Source: Escherichia phage UP19
DNA length: 64,000 nt
Sequence record: OX638288
Reading direction: 5' to 3' (one strand)
The notes under the pieces are model-generated. The model saw only the letters and a program-made list of their open reading frames with translations. It was not told the DNA's origin and made no database searches. Position numbers and translations under genes: made by a program. Within the stretch, counting starts at the first letter, position 1, and the number at the start of each line of letters is the position of its first letter. Shown here in pieces: positions 19,851-48,680 of the stretch.

Positions 19851-21377
19851 TTATTCTACTTTAATAATAAAAAGAACGGACATTGTCCAAGGACGTGTTT
19901 CATTTGCAATAAGTCCTTCACTATTCAGTGTGGTATGGCCATCACGGTTCCAAGGTTCAGTGGTCTCAAACCCTTCGTTAGTATAATAACTACGGTTATC
20001 CCAGTCAAGTCCTTTACGAGTACCAACATACCCAGAGTTAGCGGTGTTACCAAAAGCACCATAGTTATCATGTTCACCAAAACCACCGGCGTGTTTATGA
20101 TAACGTAATGCTTGGGCTTGAACAGAAGATTGTGGGAACGAACCTACACCGTTACCTAAACGGGCTTTACCTTTACCGTCTTCTCCTCGGTTACCGGCAA
20201 TATGTGGGTTAACTTCACCTTCAGAATATCCACCAACCATGTTAGCACCGCGAGGATACAATCCACGGAAATCTGGAATAGCACCCCACCATCCCCAACG
20301 TCCGCCAACAGCATTTAAATATGCACCACCAGTATAAGTCCCACCTACACAAGCTCGCCATTTGCCCGGGATATTACCTTCATGTCCACCCCACATACAA
20401 ATAGTACCTACCGGAACGCTATCTGATAATTGGTCGTGGGTAACAACATCAACACCATTACGACGTAATGCGCCATTAACGTTTAAAGTACCCCATATTT
20501 CACCACCTGAAGTAGAAATAACGTTAGCATTATAAGCCAGGGCCGTATTACCATCGCCTTGTCCTACTGTAGTAGTTAAACGCACCAAGCCAATTCGTCC
20601 TGTATTACCTGTACGAGCTAGCAAAGATGCCGGAGTAACAGCGGCGGTATGGTCAGTACCATTAGATACCATATCCCAACCTGCGAGTTTAATAATACCA
20701 CTTCTGGCTTCGGTGGAAGTTAATGTGGCTAATCCGGCTGGAGAAATAGCAATACCTACCGAAAGACTTCCATTGCCAACTTCAGCATTAGTAGCTAAAC
20801 GAACCAAACCTTCATTTGTGGTCGTTGCCGTAGAATAAACCGGTAACGCTGCTGTGGCCGCACCAATTGCTTGAGATACTTTAAGTGGGGTCATTGCTGT
20901 GGTATCATCGGTACCAGCTAATGCAGCAGGCGTAGTTGAAATCTTGATAACGCCTGTAGTGTTCTCTGTTGATAAACGGTTCTCAAATGTATAATCCATT
21001 ACCGCTTTCAAAGAGGTTGCTACGATTGCAGCCTGGGGCTCTGTGCCTGCTATAGCTTCAGCATTAGTAGCATAACGGGTAATACCTACATAAGTTTCTG
21101 ATGCCTGAGTAGGAATATCTAAACGTGCTTTTAAAGTTGCAGGGGTCACTGCACTATAAGCATCCAACCCATCCATTACTTCTTGTGTTGTGGCAAGACG
21201 AATAATACCTTGGGATGTTTCTGTGGCTGAAGGAACATTACCTGTGACACCGATTAATGAAATAGCCGCCAATGCTTCTTGAACATTAGTAATATCAGGC
21301 GGGAAATTCGACCCAGTAGGGTCGAATGATTTGAATTCCGATTTATCACTAATGTGTTTTAGTGTGTTTGTTGACAT
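19851..21377 (-). CDS. 12: gp12 short tail fibre
   Basis: 508 aa; synteny 11-12-wac; Gly-rich C-terminal receptor-binding region. Confidence 0.8.
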   Translation of the reverse strand: MSTNTLKHISDKSEFKSFDPTGSNFPPDITNVQEALAAISLIGVTGNVPSATETSQGIIRLATTQEVMDGLDAYSAVTPATLKARLDIPTQASETYVGITRYATNAEAIAGTEPQAAIVATSLKAVMDYTFENRLSTENTTGVIKISTTPAALAGTDDTTAMTPLKVSQAIGAATAALPVYSTATTTNEGLVRLATNAEVGNGSLSVGIAISPAGLATLTSTEARSGIIKLAGWDMVSNGTDHTAAVTPASLLARTGNTGRIGLVRLTTTVGQGDGNTALAYNANVISTSGGEIWGTLNVNGALRRNGVDVVTHDQLSDSVPVGTICMWGGHEGNIPGKWRACVGGTYTGGAYLNAVGGRWGWWGAIPDFRGLYPRGANMVGGYSEGEVNPHIAGNRGEDGKGKARLGNGVGSFPQSSVQAQALRYHKHAGGFGEHDNYGAFGNTANSGYVGTRKGLDWDNRSYYTNEGFETTEPWNRDGHTTLNSEGLIANETRPWTMSVLFIIKVE

Positions 21378-42184: not shown

Positions 42185-42214
42185 GTTTACAACCCTCAGA
42201 GGACAGGGTATAAT
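42185..42214 (+). promoter_or_regulatory. Early promoter with canonical TATAAT flanked by inverted repeat GAGGACA/TGTCCTC
   Basis: GTTTAC 42185-42190, 17-bp spacer, TATAAT 42209-42214. Confidence 0.6.
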
Positions 42215-42899: not shown

Positions 42900-43442
42900 A
42901 TGAGTTTATATGATAACCTTATATCAAATATTGATTGGTTTAAAAATAGTGGTCTTTCCCATGAAACCAATTCAGTTCTTTATAGAATTCGCCAAGACCT
43001 AGGCTATTCAAACGATTTCTTAAGCAGAACATCTAGCCGTGGCGATACTACCAAATTACCTTTTATTTTTGCTTTAGCTGAAGACCTTTCTTTTGAAGAT
43101 GCTTTGGAAATTATTGACGTAAATCTGACTATTCAACGAGTGGAATTCGCTGGACTACGTTATTCAGTATATTCTTTAAATGAGAGCGATGATTGTGTGC
43201 TTCTTAATATGGCAGATGATGATTACCATTTAGTATGCTATGTGGCTTTAGAAAATGGTGATGTATTTGGAATGGTCGACCGTCGACCATCTTACACTGA
43301 TATTAAAAATTATGATAAAGCCGAGCTTGGTATCTTAACTGCTGAGTACACATTAGAAAGTCGTAAACAACAACGGAAGCTTAATCGCTTTATTGCTGAA
43401 TGCCGTGAATACGCTAAAGAGGTTCAAAATGGAACGGCCTAG
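42900..43442 (+). CDS. Hypothetical protein
   Basis: 180-aa ORF with GGAGGAGAGG SD upstream. Confidence 0.5.
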   Translation: MSLYDNLISNIDWFKNSGLSHETNSVLYRIRQDLGYSNDFLSRTSSRGDTTKLPFIFALAEDLSFEDALEIIDVNLTIQRVEFAGLRYSVYSLNESDDCVLLNMADDDYHLVCYVALENGDVFGMVDRRPSYTDIKNYDKAELGILTAEYTLESRKQQRKLNRFIAECREYAKEVQNGTA

Positions 43443-43782
43443 TCTTTCATCGCATGTTTATCAATTGGCTGAATATGATATTGCTATTTCCTTATTCACG
43501 GGAATTGTCACAGGTATGCTCGGCGGTCTGGTTGGTCTGGTAATGACCACAGTTATGGCTGCAATCGAAGGAGTCATGCCTATTGAGATGGGTTTCTATA
43601 TGATAATCGCTCCGGCTGTCGTGGCTTATTTTATCCCTCTTGTGTATGATATTTGCCATACAAATGCTTTGAATGCTCCCATCCGTAAGAGATATGCTTT
43701 AGAGATGGCTAATTATAATGAGTATGTAAAACAAACCAAACGTAATGACCTTGAAACCTTTATTAAGGAATGTAAATCATGA
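43429..43782 (+). CDS. Membrane protein with two or three transmembrane helices; paralog of 47860..48447
   Basis: Hydrophobic helices; C-terminal tail ..KRNDLETFIKECKS resembles ..KKNALNSFIEECRK of the other gene. Confidence 0.45.
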   Translation: MERPSLSSHVYQLAEYDIAISLFTGIVTGMLGGLVGLVMTTVMAAIEGVMPIEMGFYMIIAPAVVAYFIPLVYDICHTNALNAPIRKRYALEMANYNEYVKQTKRNDLETFIKECKS

Positions 43783-44069
43783 ATAAAATTGAAATTGAAA
43801 TCCCTGAATACAACGACGAGAAATCTGCAGAAAAAGCTATCTATGCTCTTCTGAATAAAGTAGATACCATCGAACATGAATGTGAAGCTATTGCTGATAA
43901 GTACGGTATTCAATTCGGAACAGGTGATTATGGCTCAGGACGTACATACTACCCTGTTGGTTATGAATGCTCCCAGTGGTTTAAAGATGAAATTGAAAAC
44001 AATGGTGGTGAAGTTGAAAATGGCGTCGTTACAGTTGGTGCCTGGATCTCCTCTTCAGCATTATGCTAA
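43779..44069 (+). CDS. Tandem small-paralog family member 1 (C-terminus ..GAWISSSALC)
   Basis: 96 aa; conserved TGCTAAGG stop/SD junction to the next gene. Confidence 0.55.
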   Translation: MNKIEIEIPEYNDEKSAEKAIYALLNKVDTIEHECEAIADKYGIQFGTGDYGSGRTYYPVGYECSQWFKDEIENNGGEVENGVVTVGAWISSSALC

Positions 44070-44078
44070 GGAAACGCT

Positions 44079-44360
44079 ATGATGAATGATAATCATAACC
44101 ACCCAGAGCTTCTGGCCGCAGTAAAAGAAATTCATGAAGCTATTCGTCGTGCCGAGGAAATTGCAGACAAATATGAGACTCATTTTAATATATACCCTGC
44201 TCGCGGTATGGGCGGTGACTATTATTCTCCTGGCGCCCTGAAAGCTGACCTAGCCCACTGGGAAGAAGATGGTCATCCTGAATGGGCTATTGTTAATACT
44301 CATGACTATACAACTGACCTGGAAAATGGTGGTTGGGTGTCCTCTTCTTCTGAATGTTAA
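44079..44360 (+). CDS. Tandem small-paralog family member 2 (..GGWVSSSSEC)
   Basis: 93 aa; shares IADKY(G/E) with member 1. Confidence 0.55.
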   Translation: MMNDNHNHPELLAAVKEIHEAIRRAEEIADKYETHFNIYPARGMGGDYYSPGALKADLAHWEEDGHPEWAIVNTHDYTTDLENGGWVSSSSEC

Positions 44361-44369
44361 GGAAATATT

Positions 44370-44567
44370 ATGTCTCGTGAATTAGATTGTGCAATCCGTA
44401 CTGCCGCCGCGGCTATTGAAAACGTTATCCAGATTTGCAAAGAAGAACGTGAAGAAGCTGATATCTATATCGATGGTGTTCGTGACCTGGAACGACATAT
44501 CACGCTTTACAATGGTTGTATTACAATTAGTGGTACCTCTTGGGTGTCCTCCTCTTACGAATGCTAA
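44370..44567 (+). CDS. Tandem small-paralog family member 3 (..TSWVSSSYEC)
   Basis: 65 aa; same C-terminal motif and junction. Confidence 0.55.
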   Translation: MSRELDCAIRTAAAAIENVIQICKEEREEADIYIDGVRDLERHITLYNGCITISGTSWVSSSYEC

Positions 44568-44576
44568 GGTAATAAA

Positions 44577-44789
44577 ATGACTATTGATGAAATTGAAAAA
44601 CAAATCCGTGAATTAGTACGTAAAGGCCAGTCCGTGGCTGATGAAACAGGTGAAGAGTTCCATGTTTCCGGTCGTGGACAATACATTTCTCCAAAGAATC
44701 CGGAATATGATGATTACGAATGGGCCCGTGATGATTACGGTATCCCAGATGGTGAAGGTTTCTGGTTTACATCCTCTATGTCTTGCTAA
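44577..44789 (+). CDS. Tandem small-paralog family member 4 (..FWFTSSMSC)
   Basis: 70 aa; same motif and junction. Confidence 0.55.
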   Translation: MTIDEIEKQIRELVRKGQSVADETGEEFHVSGRGQYISPKNPEYDDYEWARDDYGIPDGEGFWFTSSMSC

Positions 44790-44798
44790 GGTGATAAA

Positions 44799-45023
44799 AT
44801 GTCTGATATTAATGAATTAGAAAAAGCTGCTCTTGAACTGGCTGCATTGTATAAGAAAGTAAAAGATATGGCTTCTGCTCAAAGTTTTGGTGTTGAGTTA
44901 GACGATTACGATGGTGAAGTTCGTCTTGAAGATTGGTTGAATAGCTCTTGTTACGGCGAAGAAGCTGGTCGCACCTTCGTTGCTCGTTCCGATGGTAAAA
45001 TCTGGTACCCGAGCTCATGCTAA
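44799..45023 (+). CDS. Tandem small-paralog family member 5 (..KIWYPSSC)
   Basis: 74 aa; same motif. Confidence 0.55.
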   Translation: MSDINELEKAALELAALYKKVKDMASAQSFGVELDDYDGEVRLEDWLNSSCYGEEAGRTFVARSDGKIWYPSSC

Positions 45024-45244
45024 AATTAAAGAAAAGATACATTCGTAAAATAAACGGTCTTCGCGATTATGCCAAAGGTTGGCCATTAAGTATTATTATG
45101 GCTGATAGACACCCACGTTATAATACTGAGATGACCTATTATAAAAAGTATGATTCATATTGTCGGTCTAAAGCAGGTCGTTTAGATGGTTCTTATGAAG
45201 AATATTTTGGCAAAAAACCTACTCGTATTTCGTTAGGAAAATAA
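45017..45244 (+). CDS. Hypothetical basic protein
   Basis: 75-aa ORF; start uncertain because it overlaps the previous stop. Confidence 0.3.
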   Translation: MLKLKKRYIRKINGLRDYAKGWPLSIIMADRHPRYNTEMTYYKKYDSYCRSKAGRLDGSYEEYFGKKPTRISLGK

Positions 45245-45253
45245 TTTAGCCAC

Positions 45254-45604
45254 ATGGACGTGGTAGGAGGACTTATGCACAAAGATTCAGTATTCAAATA
45301 TCTTTTGAAAACAGATAAAGAATTCTATATGAATGGGCAAGCTTTCTTGTTCGTTCGTGGTAAACGTGAGATGTTTTATAAATGCGACCTCTCAATGCAC
45401 CATCACATGTATCATACTCATGGTGAGCCTATACTAGGGTTCTCTGGTGACGAGACTAGACGCATAGCTATGTATTATGACCATTTTAAGCTCAATGACT
45501 GTGGTGACAACGCTTTGGTCTGGAATCCATCTTGGCGTCGTTGGGATACGGTAGACAACGATAAATTATTTTTAGAATATTGCAGAAGTGATGTACAACT
45601 CTAA
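45254..45604 (+). CDS. Hypothetical protein
   Basis: 116-aa ORF; His-rich segment. Confidence 0.4.
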   Translation: MDVVGGLMHKDSVFKYLLKTDKEFYMNGQAFLFVRGKREMFYKCDLSMHHHMYHTHGEPILGFSGDETRRIAMYYDHFKLNDCGDNALVWNPSWRRWDTVDNDKLFLEYCRSDVQL

Positions 45605-45647
45605 AAACTTGTGTTACTATTACCTTACACAAACATGAGGAGAACAT

Positions 45648-45887
45648 ATGTGGTATTACTCTCCATTGTCTGATAAGTCTGATGAGCCGGTACGAATTAC
45701 TCGTGCCAAGTTTAAAAAGATTTATGGTTTTGCCTATAAGAAGTCTGATTATGGTGTTCGTTTTGAAGATGCTCACTGTATCAATGACCCTTATACAGAA
45801 GAAATCTCTAATGAGATAATTCCTATCATTAAGAATAATTCTGATGATATGTGGGAATTGCATAACGATTACGTTGCTGAAATTTAA
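45648..45887 (+). CDS. Hypothetical protein
   Basis: 79 aa; GAGGAG SD before the ATG. Confidence 0.45.
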   Translation: MWYYSPLSDKSDEPVRITRAKFKKIYGFAYKKSDYGVRFEDAHCINDPYTEEISNEIIPIIKNNSDDMWELHNDYVAEI

Positions 45888-45908: not shown

Positions 45909-46868
45909 ATGATGCTAGTTATTGGTTCTCGTGCACTGCACCATGCAGGTCTGATTGAAAGTAAGTATATAGAAAATTCTGATTGGGATTTCATTGCCGA
46001 CCAAGGCTCGTGGAATCAATTTAAAGCCCGGATGTTCGGTGCTCACGTTCCTGTGGATAATCCAGATGTCCAGGCTTTTAAATGCATGTACAATGGTAAA
46101 GAAACCTATTTTGAAGCTTATATCGTTCGTGCTCTGACTAACGTACGAGAAATTACCGGTGAGCTTCAAGACGAAGATTTCACTTCAAGCTATCGTCTCC
46201 TGAAATATGCTGAAACCCATATTCAAAAGGACCGTCTTACTGGTTTCTATTGGGCAACCCCTGATATCTGTCTGGCTATCAAAATGAGCCATCGTTATTT
46301 GAAGAACAACCCGTTCTTTTTGAAGACGATGTCCCACATCAAATATCTTCGTAATAAAGGTGTAACCTTGAATGAAGAGCTCCAAGAAATCATGTTGCAA
46401 CGTCAGAAAGAAACGTTGAGCTATTCTCATCCTAAATTGGATGTAAACAAATCATCATTCTTTAATGATACCATTTATACGCTAGACCATGACTCTATCC
46501 ACGAAGCTGTGGCATTGGCTGGACGCCCTGCATATACCTTTTATATGAAGGAAGGTTCTGAAGTCATGACCTCACGTGAGAAGTTTGAAGCTTTGCCTGA
46601 AGCTATTAAACTGGCTGGCGTATATGAAGAAACTTGTGTGTTGGCCCTAGAACGTTCACAGGTTCCTAACAACTTTAATATTTCACCGTCATTAAGTTTC
46701 TATATGGCTCTTGAGAAAGTGTGTACCTCAATCACTTCAGGCTGGTTCCGTGAGTATGCCTGGGAAAACTACCAAGCTGTAGTGAATATGTATAAGACCC
46801 TAGGTGAAAATGACTACATCAAGCGGTTCCAAGATAACCATCATTTAATTCGTCCTTTCGAAAAATAA
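45909..46868 (+). CDS. Hypothetical protein (319 aa)
   Basis: Long ORF with GAGGAAAATATT-ATG junction. Confidence 0.5.
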   Translation: MMLVIGSRALHHAGLIESKYIENSDWDFIADQGSWNQFKARMFGAHVPVDNPDVQAFKCMYNGKETYFEAYIVRALTNVREITGELQDEDFTSSYRLLKYAETHIQKDRLTGFYWATPDICLAIKMSHRYLKNNPFFLKTMSHIKYLRNKGVTLNEELQEIMLQRQKETLSYSHPKLDVNKSSFFNDTIYTLDHDSIHEAVALAGRPAYTFYMKEGSEVMTSREKFEALPEAIKLAGVYEETCVLALERSQVPNNFNISPSLSFYMALEKVCTSITSGWFREYAWENYQAVVNMYKTLGENDYIKRFQDNHHLIRPFEK

Positions 46869-47860: not shown

Positions 47861-48447
47861 TGGCCCTTTATGAACCTGGTTGCATGGGTGTTGATGTAAA
47901 CTTCATCCGTCGGTCAGAAAATGCCGGAATCATTATCCCAAGTGGTGAACATATGATTATTAAAAAGTCCTGGCGAAATATTGATGATGGGGATGAAGGA
48001 ATTTCAGCCAGTACAATAGATTGGTCAGGTTGTACTGCTGAAATGAAACAACTTTTAATTGAGGAATATAAAATGGGCTATATCGTAAATGGTTGGCAAC
48101 CAGAACCCCATAAAGAACAGACACCAGACCCATTGATTTGTTATAGCAAAAAATACGGCTTTCGTACATGGAGTGATGAATACGACAAATTAGTGAGTTC
48201 TAGGTTCTATGTTTGGATGGGGATATTATTTTTCCCACTCCTAGGGTTTTTCCTGACAACGGATAATGACTTACCTATTAGTGTGTTTGCTTCAGCGATG
48301 TCGGCGGCAATCTTAGGGCTTATTGCATCATTTTTATGGACTGCAGTTATTGAAGTACCTTTTCGTATTTCTAAAGTTAAAAAGGTGTATGACGATATCA
48401 CTAAGAAAAATGCATTAAACTCTTTTATTGAGGAATGCCGTAAATGA
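47860..48447 (+). CDS. Membrane protein, paralog of 43429..43782
   Basis: 195 aa; C-terminal transmembrane helices and conserved ..FIEECRK tail. Confidence 0.5.
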   Translation: MALYEPGCMGVDVNFIRRSENAGIIIPSGEHMIIKKSWRNIDDGDEGISASTIDWSGCTAEMKQLLIEEYKMGYIVNGWQPEPHKEQTPDPLICYSKKYGFRTWSDEYDKLVSSRFYVWMGILFFPLLGFFLTTDNDLPISVFASAMSAAILGLIASFLWTAVIEVPFRISKVKKVYDDITKKNALNSFIEECRK

Positions 48448-48680
48448 GTATTGCGATTTATATTAAATCCGAGTCATGCGATTCTTATCTGTATTCCTAT
48501 GACACCGGAACATCAGAAGAGAAAATCAAAGAAGATTTAGAAACCGACTTGGATATGTTCCGTCCTATTTCTGACTATATGGTCCAAGTGTCTGATAGTG
48601 AAAGCCCGTCATTAGAAAATAGACTTGAATTTTTAATGAGCGATATTTTTAACCAATCATGGAAACGTGATGATGAGTAA
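48444..48680 (+). CDS. Hypothetical acidic small protein
   Basis: 78 aa; overlaps the upstream stop. Confidence 0.4.
   Translation: MSIAIYIKSESCDSYLYSYDTGTSEEKIKEDLETDLDMFRPISDYMVQVSDSESPSLENRLEFLMSDIFNQSWKRDDE

What the first reader, a model, noticed from the sequence alone, without database searches (positions are those of the whole stretch)
43779..45023. Tandem array of five diverged small paralogs ending in W-x-S-S-S-x-x-C, joined by a conserved TGC-TAA-GG junction
Five back-to-back genes of 65-96 aa share an acidic helical N-terminal part and a C-terminus of the form G(A/G/S)W(I/V)SSS(x)(E/A)C, WFTSSMSC or WYPSSC, each ending on Cys. Every gene is linked to the next by TGCTAAGG(A/T)..ATG, so the stop codon doubles as the next gene's SD. 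I do not recognise the family. Tandem duplication with rapid divergence of small early genes is the usual signature of host-interaction or anti-defence loci.
Basis: seen in the sequence. Interest (0 to 1): 0.72.

Follow-up and report, generated by a model that had tools for sequence, protein, structure and literature searches.

The report
Tail-tagged small proteins with partner nucleotidyltransferase
Five small phage genes share an invariant C-terminal tail (Trp-x-x-Ser-Ser…Cys-end), and in hundreds of very different phages genes with this tail sit just upstream of the same uncharacterised nucleotidyltransferase, which points to an undescribed two-part enzyme-and-partner system rather than a fast-evolving anti-defence gene cluster.

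Summary
Five co-directional genes (96, 93, 65, 70 and 74 aa; pI 4.3-4.7) at 43779-45023 each end in W-x-x-S-S-x(0-2)-Cys-stop. They are joined by TG(C/T)-TAA-GG with a constant 9-nt gap from stop codon to ATG. The window is a JS98-like T4-type coliphage (Dhakavirus).

The "recent duplication, rapid divergence" reading does not hold.
- Each gene has its own orthologues in other phage genera and families.
- dN/dS is 0.04-0.56.
- g1, g2 and g4 are homologous without the tail. g5 is marginal. g3 shares only the tail.

The tail is kept with both serine codon families, all three stop codons and unrelated junction DNA, so selection acts on the protein.

- 72 of 76 viral loci with this enzyme carry tail-bearing small genes. 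All 205 tail-ending ORFs found by the regex scan lie upstream on the same strand.
- The reverse test gave 18 of 19, and an independent sample gave 6 of 6.
- No other neighbouring gene is conserved.
- T4 lacks both at the syntenic site.

I found no literature on either family. My best reading is that the tail is the enzyme's docking or acceptor site. The chemistry is inferred, not shown.

The parts
43779..44069 (+). g1, 96-aa acidic small protein, tail GAWISSSALC-stop ('A type')
   Evidence: ORF. PHROG 899, E 1.5e-22. Homologous to g2 and g4 without the tail (hhalign 99.4% and 98.0%). dN/dS 0.04-0.24.
44079..44360 (+). g2, 93-aa acidic small protein with central YGMGG-type motif, tail GGWVSSSSEC-stop ('B type')
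44370..44567 (+). g3, 65-aa small protein, tail SWVSSSYEC-stop ('C type'). Shares only the tail with the others
   Evidence: PHROG 4882, E 2.4e-36. hhalign 13% or less to every other type once the tail is removed. Absent from close relative L008. dN/dS 0.07-0.22.
44577..44789 (+). g4, 70-aa acidic small protein, tail GFWFTSSMSC-stop ('D type')
   Evidence: PHROG 899, E 3.3e-14. hhalign 98.0-98.6% to g1 and g2. dN/dS 0.14-0.56, the least constrained of the five.
44799..45023 (+). g5, 74-aa acidic small protein with the motif twice: internal DWLNSSC and terminal IWYPSSC-stop ('E type')
   Evidence: PHROG 899, E 1.4e-9. Marginal body similarity to g1, g2 and g4 (hhalign 25-50%). dN/dS 0.05-0.15.
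44064..44081 (+). Junction g1/g2: TGC TAA GGAAACGCT ATG (Cys codon, stop, SD-like AAGG, 9-nt gap). The same layout occurs at 44355-44372, 44562-44579 and 44784-44801
   Evidence: Read directly. The layout is common among the Tevenvirinae loci examined but not universal. Other phages use overlapping stop/start or unrelated spacers.
45909..46868 (+). 319-aa partner enzyme: Pol-beta-fold nucleotidyltransferase, Pfam DUF7277 (residues 2-101) + DUF7275 (residues 120-305)
45017..45887 (+). Three intervening small ORFs (45017-45244, 45254-45604, 45648-45887). These are lineage-specific filler, not part of the conserved module
   Evidence: No Pfam hit. No homologue in 56 distant loci. In many phages the enzyme gene follows the last tail gene within 13-100 nt.
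42186..42214 (+). Best sigma-70-like promoter match upstream of the block (TTTACA-17-TATAAT, 11 of 12). No terminator-like site on the + strand between it and 49500
   Evidence: Consensus scan only. Co-transcription of the array and the enzyme gene is inferred, not shown.

Best explanation
The five genes are the 'partner' half of a conserved two-part phage module. The other half is the nucleotidyltransferase gene 0.9 kb downstream (45909-46868).

The small proteins are folded, acidic and cytoplasmic. Their bodies differ, with at least three body families (g1/g2/g4 type, g5 type, g3 type). All end in the same exposed tag: Trp-x-x-Ser-Ser, then 0-3 residues, then a Cys that is the last residue.

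I propose that this tag is what the co-encoded enzyme recognises. The tail docks in or next to the active site, and one of the two invariant serine hydroxyls accepts a nucleotidyl (or phosphoryl) group. Trp and the terminal Cys would act as recognition or anchoring determinants. The different bodies would then give the tagged proteins different downstream roles in the infected cell.

Shown here:
- the tag is under protein-level selection;
- the enzyme has an intact Pol-beta active-site signature and fold;
- the two gene types are almost always adjacent and co-oriented across very distant phages, and nothing else in the neighbourhood is conserved.

Inferred:
- physical interaction between tail and enzyme;
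- the tail as acceptor;
- the chemistry (O-nucleotidylation);
- any effect on the host.

Confidence by step: functional module about 0.85; tail is the element read by the enzyme about 0.6; serine nucleotidylation or phosphorylation of the tail about 0.35.
For: Linkage:
- In 76 IMG/VR loci found through the enzyme alone, 69 had 1-6 tail-bearing small ORFs. Three more had copies cut by the contig end or frameshifted.
- All 205 tail-ending ORFs were upstream on the same strand. None were downstream or on the opposite strand, among 5,635 small ORFs.
- Reverse test: 18 of 19 loci found through the small-protein YGMGG motif have the enzyme gene 1.3 kb or less downstream. The exception ends at the contig edge.
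- Independent look-ups of 7 divergent family representatives: 6 of 6 informative contigs have a DUF7277/DUF7275 gene adjacent.
- Only these two gene types are shared across 56 distant loci.
- The linkage spans Tevenvirinae, Erwinia jumbo phages (enzyme 53% identical), Phapecoctavirus and Acinetobacter T4-likes.
- T4 lacks both at the syntenic e.3/e.2 site.

Tag:
- W, S and S are invariant in all 308 Cys-terminated tails, out of 320 unique tails. The Cys is the last residue in those 308.
- 120 of 128 cluster representatives from a 1.84-billion-protein search end this way, and the other 8 have one extra residue.
- The tag is kept across all serine codons and all stop codons.
- It sits on at least three unrelated or barely related bodies.
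- 72 of 350 members carry extra internal copies. That fits a modification or recognition unit better than a fold element.
- The last residues of the g2 model have low confidence, consistent with an accessible tail.

Enzyme:
- G6-S7, D25-x-D27 and E69 are invariant.
- Its best structural neighbours all transfer NMP to a hydroxyl group: MenT toxins to the tRNA 3'-OH, and ANT(2'') and LnuA to antibiotic hydroxyls.
- MenT-type enzymes are known to pair with small upstream partners and to phosphorylate an active-site Ser or Thr (PMC11375011).
- The enzyme is strongly constrained (dN/dS 0.04-0.07).
Against: - No direct evidence of binding or modification. No complex model could be run.
- Trp86 lies inside a predicted beta-strand, so part of the motif may be structural rather than a free tag.
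- The internal copy in g5-type proteins does not end the chain, so a free C-terminal carboxylate cannot be essential for every copy.
- The most remote enzyme relatives (25-34% identity: L079, L080, L082, L103-L106) have no tail genes. The enzyme fold therefore works without them in some lineages.
- Gene adjacency also fits a regulator-enzyme relationship with no covalent chemistry.
- The enzyme is not basic (median pI 5.8). This argues weakly against an RNA substrate but says nothing positive about a protein substrate.
Confidence: 0.4

Rival explanations
1. Toxin-antitoxin-like regulation. The nucleotidyltransferase acts on RNA, for example host tRNA 3' ends as MenT does. The small proteins are non-covalent inhibitors or timers that plug or reshape its active site. 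The tail would be a pseudo-substrate and the N-terminal helix the binding element, as in MenA1-MenT1.
For: - Best fold matches are MenT1, MenT3 and MenT4 toxins.
- The partner genes lie upstream and co-directional, as antitoxin genes do.
- The small proteins have a long N-terminal amphipathic helix, and MenA1 binds MenT1 through a single long helix (PMC11375011).
- RNA-repair or tRNA genes are near the module in some phages.
Against: - One enzyme would not need three to six different inhibitors whose types are conserved across phage families.
- Extra internal tag copies are not expected of an inhibitor.
- No sequence membership in DUF1814/AbiEii: no Pfam hit at E up to 10 in 37 members.
- The enzyme is not basic.
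- tRNA genes are nearby in only about 10 of 52 distant loci.
Confidence: 0.25
2. One reading: independent, fast-evolving host-interaction or anti-defence proteins. Their adjacency to the nucleotidyltransferase would reflect only a shared early-gene neighbourhood.
For: - They are small, acidic, early-region genes in the plastic e-tRNA segment.
- Copy number varies: 2-6 per phage, and g3 is absent from L008.
- There are lineage-specific expansions, for example five FW(V/I)PSSM(E/S)C genes in L067.
Against: - dN/dS is below 1 for all five.
- The same types recur in different phage families.
- Adjacency and orientation relative to the enzyme hold in 72 of 76, 18 of 19 and 6 of 6 tests, in genomes with no other shared neighbours. 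Neighbourhood drift cannot explain that.
Confidence: 0.1
3. The tail is a structural or self-association element, for example Trp packing plus a terminal Cys forming a metal bridge or disulfide dimer. The enzyme would be functionally coupled only at pathway level and would not read the tail.
For: - Trp86 is in a predicted strand.
- In about 43% of members the terminal Cys is the only Cys, which is compatible with intermolecular bridging.
Against: - The same tail occurs on unrelated bodies.
- The spacing between SS and Cys varies.
- The two invariant serines have no obvious structural role.
- The tail occurs as repeated internal units.
- The cytoplasm is reducing (general knowledge).
Confidence: 0.12
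4. RiPP-like maturation. The small proteins are precursors whose Ser/Cys tail is dehydrated and cyclised (lanthionine-like), or whose terminal Cys is processed, with the nucleotidyltransferase activating serine.
For: - Tandem small genes with a conserved C-terminal Ser/Cys motif upstream of an enzyme resemble precursor arrays.
- Ser plus C-terminal Cys is the chemistry of lanthionine and AviCys (my own knowledge, not tested here).
Against: - The bodies are confidently predicted folded domains, not leaders.
- Pfam on the ORFs scanned around the array found no LanB/C/M/KC, radical-SAM, flavoprotein decarboxylase, protease or exporter domain, and no such gene is conserved in distant loci.
- No Pol-beta enzyme is known to me to drive such chemistry.
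Confidence: 0.05

Closest known systems
MenAT / AbiE toxin-antitoxin systems (DUF1814 Pol-beta nucleotidyltransferase toxin plus upstream antitoxin)
   Different: - No sequence-level membership in DUF1814.
- Phage-encoded and essentially absent from cellular genomes: 8 MAG contigs among 185,579 species.
- Several partner genes per enzyme.
- The partners are unrelated to MenA or AbiEi and are defined by an invariant C-terminal W-x-x-S-S...C tail.
- Toxicity and a tRNA target are untested.
- The enzyme has an extra conserved C-terminal domain (DUF7275).
MNT-HEPN (MntA-HepT) modules
   Same: A minimal Pol-beta nucleotidyltransferase that covalently AMPylates its small protein partner on a hydroxyl side chain (my own knowledge). 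This is the closest precedent for 'the enzyme nucleotidylates the neighbouring gene's product'.
   Different: - The partner there is a HEPN RNase modified on Tyr.
- The candidate acceptor here is Ser in a C-terminal tail.
- There are multiple partners per enzyme.
Antibiotic O-nucleotidyltransferases ANT(2'') and LnuA
   Different: Their substrates are small molecules. They have no protein partner genes and no DUF7275 domain.
CitX / MdcG with the citrate-lyase or malonate-decarboxylase acyl-carrier subunit
   Same: From my own knowledge, not tested here: a nucleotidyltransferase-class enzyme attaches a nucleotide-derived prosthetic group to a serine of a small acidic carrier protein encoded in the same operon.
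   Different: - No sequence or fold match was sought or found.
- Those are metabolic operons with one carrier.
- The serine there is internal, not in a C-terminal W-x-x-S-S...C tail.
C-terminal tag plus cognate processing enzyme pairs (for example CaaX prenylation, sortase LPXTG, PEP-CTERM/exosortase)
   Same: The logic is the same: unrelated or diverged protein bodies share a short terminal motif, and that motif co-occurs in genomes with one dedicated enzyme.
   Different: Different enzyme class, different motif, and a cytoplasmic phage setting. This is an analogy of logic only.

Membership tests
PHROG 899 / PHROG 4882 (phage proteins of unknown function) | Profile match | tested here: met
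   g1, g2, g4 and g5 match phrog_899 (E 1.5e-22 to 1.4e-9). g3 matches phrog_4882 (E 2.4e-36). Neither carries a functional annotation.
W-x-x-S-S-x(0-3)-Cys-COOH small-protein family (defined here) | Small acidic protein ending in the invariant W, S, S and a terminal Cys | tested here: met
   All five window proteins fit. 308 of 320 unique tails end in Cys, with W, S and S invariant in those. 120 of 128 cluster representatives fit.
W-x-x-S-S-x(0-3)-Cys-COOH small-protein family (defined here) | Adjacent to a DUF7277/DUF7275 gene | tested here: met
   In the window the enzyme gene is 0.9 kb downstream. Elsewhere: 72 of 76, 18 of 19 and 6 of 6.
Pfam DUF7277 + DUF7275 | Scores above the gathering thresholds | tested here: met
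   93 bits and 262 bits against a cut-off of 27. All 37 diverse homologues match DUF7275 and 36 match DUF7277.
Pol-beta nucleotidyltransferase superfamily | hG[GS] motif and the [DE]h[DE]h metal-binding carboxylates | tested here: met
   I5-G6-S7 and D25-W-D27 are invariant in 37 sequences. They are also kept in 'orphan' relatives.
Pol-beta nucleotidyltransferase superfamily | Third catalytic carboxylate | tested here: inconclusive
   E69 is invariant in A5 and is E or D in most others. Its position relative to the other two carboxylates in the model was not inspected.
Pol-beta nucleotidyltransferase superfamily | Fold | tested here: met
MenT / AbiEii (DUF1814) toxins | Sequence membership (Pfam AbiEii/DUF1814 profile) | tested here: not met
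   No hit at E up to 0.1 for the window protein, nor at E up to 10 in any of 37 homologues.
MenT / AbiEii (DUF1814) toxins | Four conserved motifs I-IV (PMC11375011) | tested here: inconclusive
   Equivalents of motifs I and II are present. Motifs III and IV were not mapped. K125-M-S-H-R129 is a candidate only.
MenT / AbiEii (DUF1814) toxins | Growth inhibition and addition of nucleotides to tRNA 3' ends, neutralised by the cognate partner | not testable with these tools
   Needs expression and tRNA-seq experiments.
RiPP (lanthipeptide-like) precursor array | Co-encoded dehydratase/cyclase or radical-SAM enzyme, leader protease and exporter | tested here: not met
   Pfam on the ORFs scanned around the array finds none. 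Nothing else is conserved across 56 distant loci.
RiPP (lanthipeptide-like) precursor array | Unstructured leader plus short core | tested here: not met
   g2 is predicted as a compact helix/strand domain with pLDDT 88.
Known anti-defence or defence proteins | Match to a curated model | tested here: not met
   PADLOC-DB gives no meaningful hit. An anti-defence catalogue was not available.

The most novel reading that the evidence does not exclude
This is a previously undescribed phage protein-tagging system. A dedicated Pol-beta nucleotidyltransferase (DUF7277/DUF7275) covalently nucleotidylates, or uses as a primer, a serine in a portable C-terminal tag (W-x-x-S-S...Cys-COOH). The tag is carried by a set of small acidic effector proteins. 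That would be a new enzyme-substrate pair and a new post-translational modification, widespread in large virulent phages (733 sequenced phages and about 2,700 database proteins for the enzyme).
Probability: 0.3. Interest if true: 0.85.

Novelty: new variant of a known kind. Interest (0 to 1): 0.7.

Why it matters
Both gene families are annotated only as 'hypothetical'. Yet the enzyme occurs in at least 733 sequenced phages, including the model phage RB69 and phages from therapy-relevant groups, and in about 2,700 database protein clusters.

Showing that the two families form one module turns two sets of orphan genes into a single testable hypothesis with clear reagents: one enzyme, one tail, four invariant residues.

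If the tail is a nucleotidylation site, this would be a new protein modification and a new use of the MenT-like fold by viruses. If the small proteins are regulators, phages would be carrying a MenT-like enzyme with an unusually elaborate control set. Either way the result bears on host takeover and translation control, and possibly on counter-defence.

Tried and rejected
- **Junction-DNA artefact.** Rejected. The tail is kept with different codons, stop codons and junctions.
- **Untranslated ORFs.** Rejected. dN/dS is well below 1, and orthologues exist across genera.
- **Recent duplication.** Rejected.
- **Coiled-coil neighbours.** The window's e.6-like gene and Kaldavass CDS0575 are not homologous, so there is no third conserved component.
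- **tRNA-cluster association.** tRNA genes are nearby in only about 10 of 52 distant loci. Too weak to use.
- **Residues lost in 'orphan' enzymes.** R129, R165, Y172, H174 and C272 are lost in the enzymes without tail genes. This is confounded by phylogenetic distance, so it is not used as evidence.
- **HD-domain or AbiEii reading of DUF7275.** No supporting Pfam signal in 37 members.
- **Tool limits.** The search for related loci with the whole-family alignment failed because it had no conserved 7-mer; a B-type alignment was used instead. The afdb50 fold library was unavailable.
- **Literature.** Seven searches in all. Four on locus tags, PHROG and Pfam ids and phage nucleotidyltransferase terms, and a fifth broad keyword search, found no description of either family. 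The other search retrieved the MenT papers used as background.
Full report
**Origin and anatomy**

The region 43300-45300 is 96% identical to Escherichia phages dhabil, CLB_P2 and JS98. The window is therefore a Dhakavirus, a T4-type myovirus.

g1 is 43779-44069 (96 aa), g2 44079-44360 (93 aa), g3 44370-44567 (65 aa), g4 44577-44789 (70 aa) and g5 44799-45023 (74 aa). All are on the + strand, with pI 4.26-4.69. Their tails are AWISSSALC, GWVSSSSEC, SWVSSSYEC, FWFTSSMSC and IWYPSSC. Each of the four internal junctions is TG(C/T)-TAA-GG(A/T), with exactly 9 nt from the stop codon to the next ATG.

In annotated relatives the array lies between the e.3/e.4-like membrane-protein genes and e.2/nudE/e. 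This is the plastic 'e to tRNA' segment of T4-type genomes.

**Is the similarity real, and at which level?**

With the last 10 residues removed, BLASTP still links g1-g2, g1-g4 and g2-g4 (E 3e-3, 9e-3 and 1e-5). I then built subfamily profiles from many phages, trimmed the tails, and compared them with hhalign.
- g1, g2 and g4 are clearly homologous (probability 98.0-99.4%).
- g5 is marginal (25-50%, confined to the N-terminal helix).
- g3 shows nothing beyond the tail (13% or less).

The tail is not a by-product of junction DNA. Across phages it is encoded with TCN and AGY serine codons, followed by TAA, TAG or TGA, and by unrelated intergenic sequences or overlapping stop/start.

All five genes are under purifying selection against five relatives: dN/dS is 0.04-0.24 for g1, 0.21-0.42 for g2, 0.07-0.22 for g3, 0.14-0.56 for g4 and 0.05-0.15 for g5.

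**Not recent, not fast**

Each of the five has its own orthologues elsewhere.
- SP18 (Gaprivervirus) has all five in the same order.
- RB69 has the g1, g2 and g3 types.
- Merlin has the g1, g2 and g5 types.
- Marfa and CIP9 have all five in a different order.
- Erwinia jumbo phages have g2- and g4-like genes.
- Phapecoctavirus ESCO13, from another phage family, has g2-, g5- and g1-type genes.

The diversification is old and the types are conserved. That is the opposite of an arms-race signature. Copy number does vary: 1-6 per locus, and g3 is missing from L008.

**The family**

Pfam, NCBIfam, PADLOC and PDB sequence searches give nothing. PHROGs 899 and 4882 match but have no known function.

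An exhaustive HMM search of 1.84 billion representative proteins found 130 clusters. Of the 128 new ones, 120 end in the tail and the other 8 have a single extra residue.

Over 320 unique tails:
- 308 end in Cys, and Trp and the two serines are invariant in those;
- the SS-to-Cys spacing is 0 (53 cases), 2 (232) or 3 (18) residues;
- median pI is 4.4;
- in about 43% of members the terminal Cys is the only Cys;
- 72 of 350 members carry additional internal W-x-x-S-S-x-C units, including g5.

**The linked gene**

A 319-aa ORF at 45909-46868 matches Pfam DUF7277 and DUF7275. It is 53% identical to a gene that also follows two tail-bearing genes in the otherwise unrelated 366-kb Erwinia phage Kaldavass.

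I searched IMG/VR with an alignment of this protein alone and obtained 76 loci. Many came from jumbo phages and unclassified contigs where the protein is only 35-55% identical.
- Of these, 69 had 1-6 tail-bearing small ORFs.
- On inspection, two more had copies cut by the contig end and one had a frameshifted remnant, giving 72 of 76.
- All 205 tail-ending ORFs lie upstream on the same strand. None lie downstream or on the other strand, among 5,635 small ORFs.

The converse search started from the small-protein YGMGG motif. It found the enzyme gene 1.3 kb or less downstream in 18 of 19 loci, and the exception stops at the contig edge.

Seven very divergent family representatives were looked up in independent assemblies. 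All six informative contigs had an adjacent DUF7277/DUF7275 gene.

No other window gene is shared with the 56 distant loci. T4 has e.3 abutting e.2 and lacks both components there.

The enzyme family has 2,718 database members and occurs in 733 sequenced phages. It is essentially absent from cellular genomes: 8 MAG contigs among 185,579 species, most of them carrying tail genes too. The most remote relatives (25-34% identity) have no tail genes.

**What the enzyme is**

G6-S7, D25-x-D27 and E69 are invariant in 37 diverse sequences. This is the Pol-beta nucleotidyltransferase signature.

It is not a sequence member of DUF1814/AbiEii. It carries a further highly conserved C-terminal region, including KVC(T/S)SITSGWFREY. 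It is under strong constraint (dN/dS 0.04-0.07) and is mildly acidic (median pI 5.8).

MenT-type enzymes transfer NMP to a 3'-hydroxyl, pair with small upstream partners, and are regulated through an active-site Ser or Thr (PMC11375011).

**Interpretation**

The firm conclusion is a two-component module: tail-tagged small proteins plus a nucleotidyltransferase.

The same short tail is invariant while its carriers diverge or are unrelated. It can be repeated within one protein. It co-occurs with one strongly conserved enzyme. For these reasons the most economical reading is that the enzyme reads the tail.

The enzyme's nearest structural relatives all nucleotidylate hydroxyl groups, and the tail's invariant residues include two serines. 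I therefore favour serine O-nucleotidylation or phosphorylation of the tail. This step is inferred.

The main rival is a TA-like arrangement in which the small proteins restrain an RNA-directed enzyme. That explains the gene order and the helix. It does not explain the multiplicity of partners, the conservation of their types, or the repeated tags.

**Expression context**

The best sigma-70-like site is at 42186-42214. No terminator-like site follows on the + strand up to 49500. The array and the enzyme gene are therefore plausibly co-transcribed, but these are consensus matches only.

**Literature**

I found no paper in the held library that mentions DUF7275, DUF7277, phrog_899 or the RB69/JS98 locus tags, or that describes a phage MenT-like enzyme with such partners.

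**Verdict**

The real finding is larger than the stated coordinates: a widespread, undescribed phage module. I class it as a new variant of a known kind (a Pol-beta nucleotidyltransferase with small protein partners). I give about 30% probability that it is a new protein-tagging chemistry.

Noticed in passing
L002 3673-3979 (RB69 ORF139c + ORF138c): In the RB69 reference genome the g1-type gene is split into two ORFs, and the tail reads WVSSPALC (Ser to Pro). A close relative (L015) has it intact as WVSSSALC. This is a pseudogene or a sequencing error in a model phage.
   Followed up: partly
window 48444-48680 (+): A 78-aa acidic ORF between e.2 and nudE has homologues (E 1e-7 to 1e-9) that sit directly upstream of the tail-bearing genes in the Erwinia jumbo-phage clade (for example L006 3750-4004). 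It was not seen in other lineages. It may be an accessory component or a co-transferred neighbour.
   Followed up: partly
L006, L101, L104-L106, L120, L123; window nudE side: In distant phages the module often lies near RNA-repair or NAD/ADP-ribose-related genes: polynucleotide kinase, RNA ligase, NinI-like phosphatase, Sir2, NADAR, Nudix, NAPRTase/Nampt and PTH2. This is anecdotal. No statistics were done.
   Followed up: no
L067 5099-6645: A 368-kb jumbo-phage contig carries five tandem genes ending FW(V/I)PSSM(E/S)C. Their bodies cluster apart from all other types, so this looks like a lineage-specific expansion next to the enzyme and an 11-tRNA cluster.
   Followed up: partly
L007-L016 versus L008: Copy number varies among close relatives. 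L008 has four genes and lacks the g3 type. dS differs several-fold between adjacent genes for the same phage pair (for example g1 0.88 versus g2 0.19 against SP18), which suggests recombinational mosaicism inside the array.
   Followed up: partly
window 45017-45023: The ORF after g5 (45017-45244, PHROG 7065, unknown function) starts at an ATG that overlaps the g5 Cys and stop codons (TC-ATG-C-TAA). Coupling therefore continues beyond the array, although the TAAGG junction does not.
   Followed up: no
window 20242-20361 (-): A 39-aa minus-strand ORF ends in WIVSSRC. It has no family profile match and is taken as a chance match to the tail regex.
   Followed up: yes
L102 2993-3259 (Acinetobacter phage Minot): Next to a normal tail-bearing gene is a related small ORF that ends ...WHNSNWSNSEA with no terminal Cys. 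It may be a decayed or functionally diverged family member.
   Followed up: no
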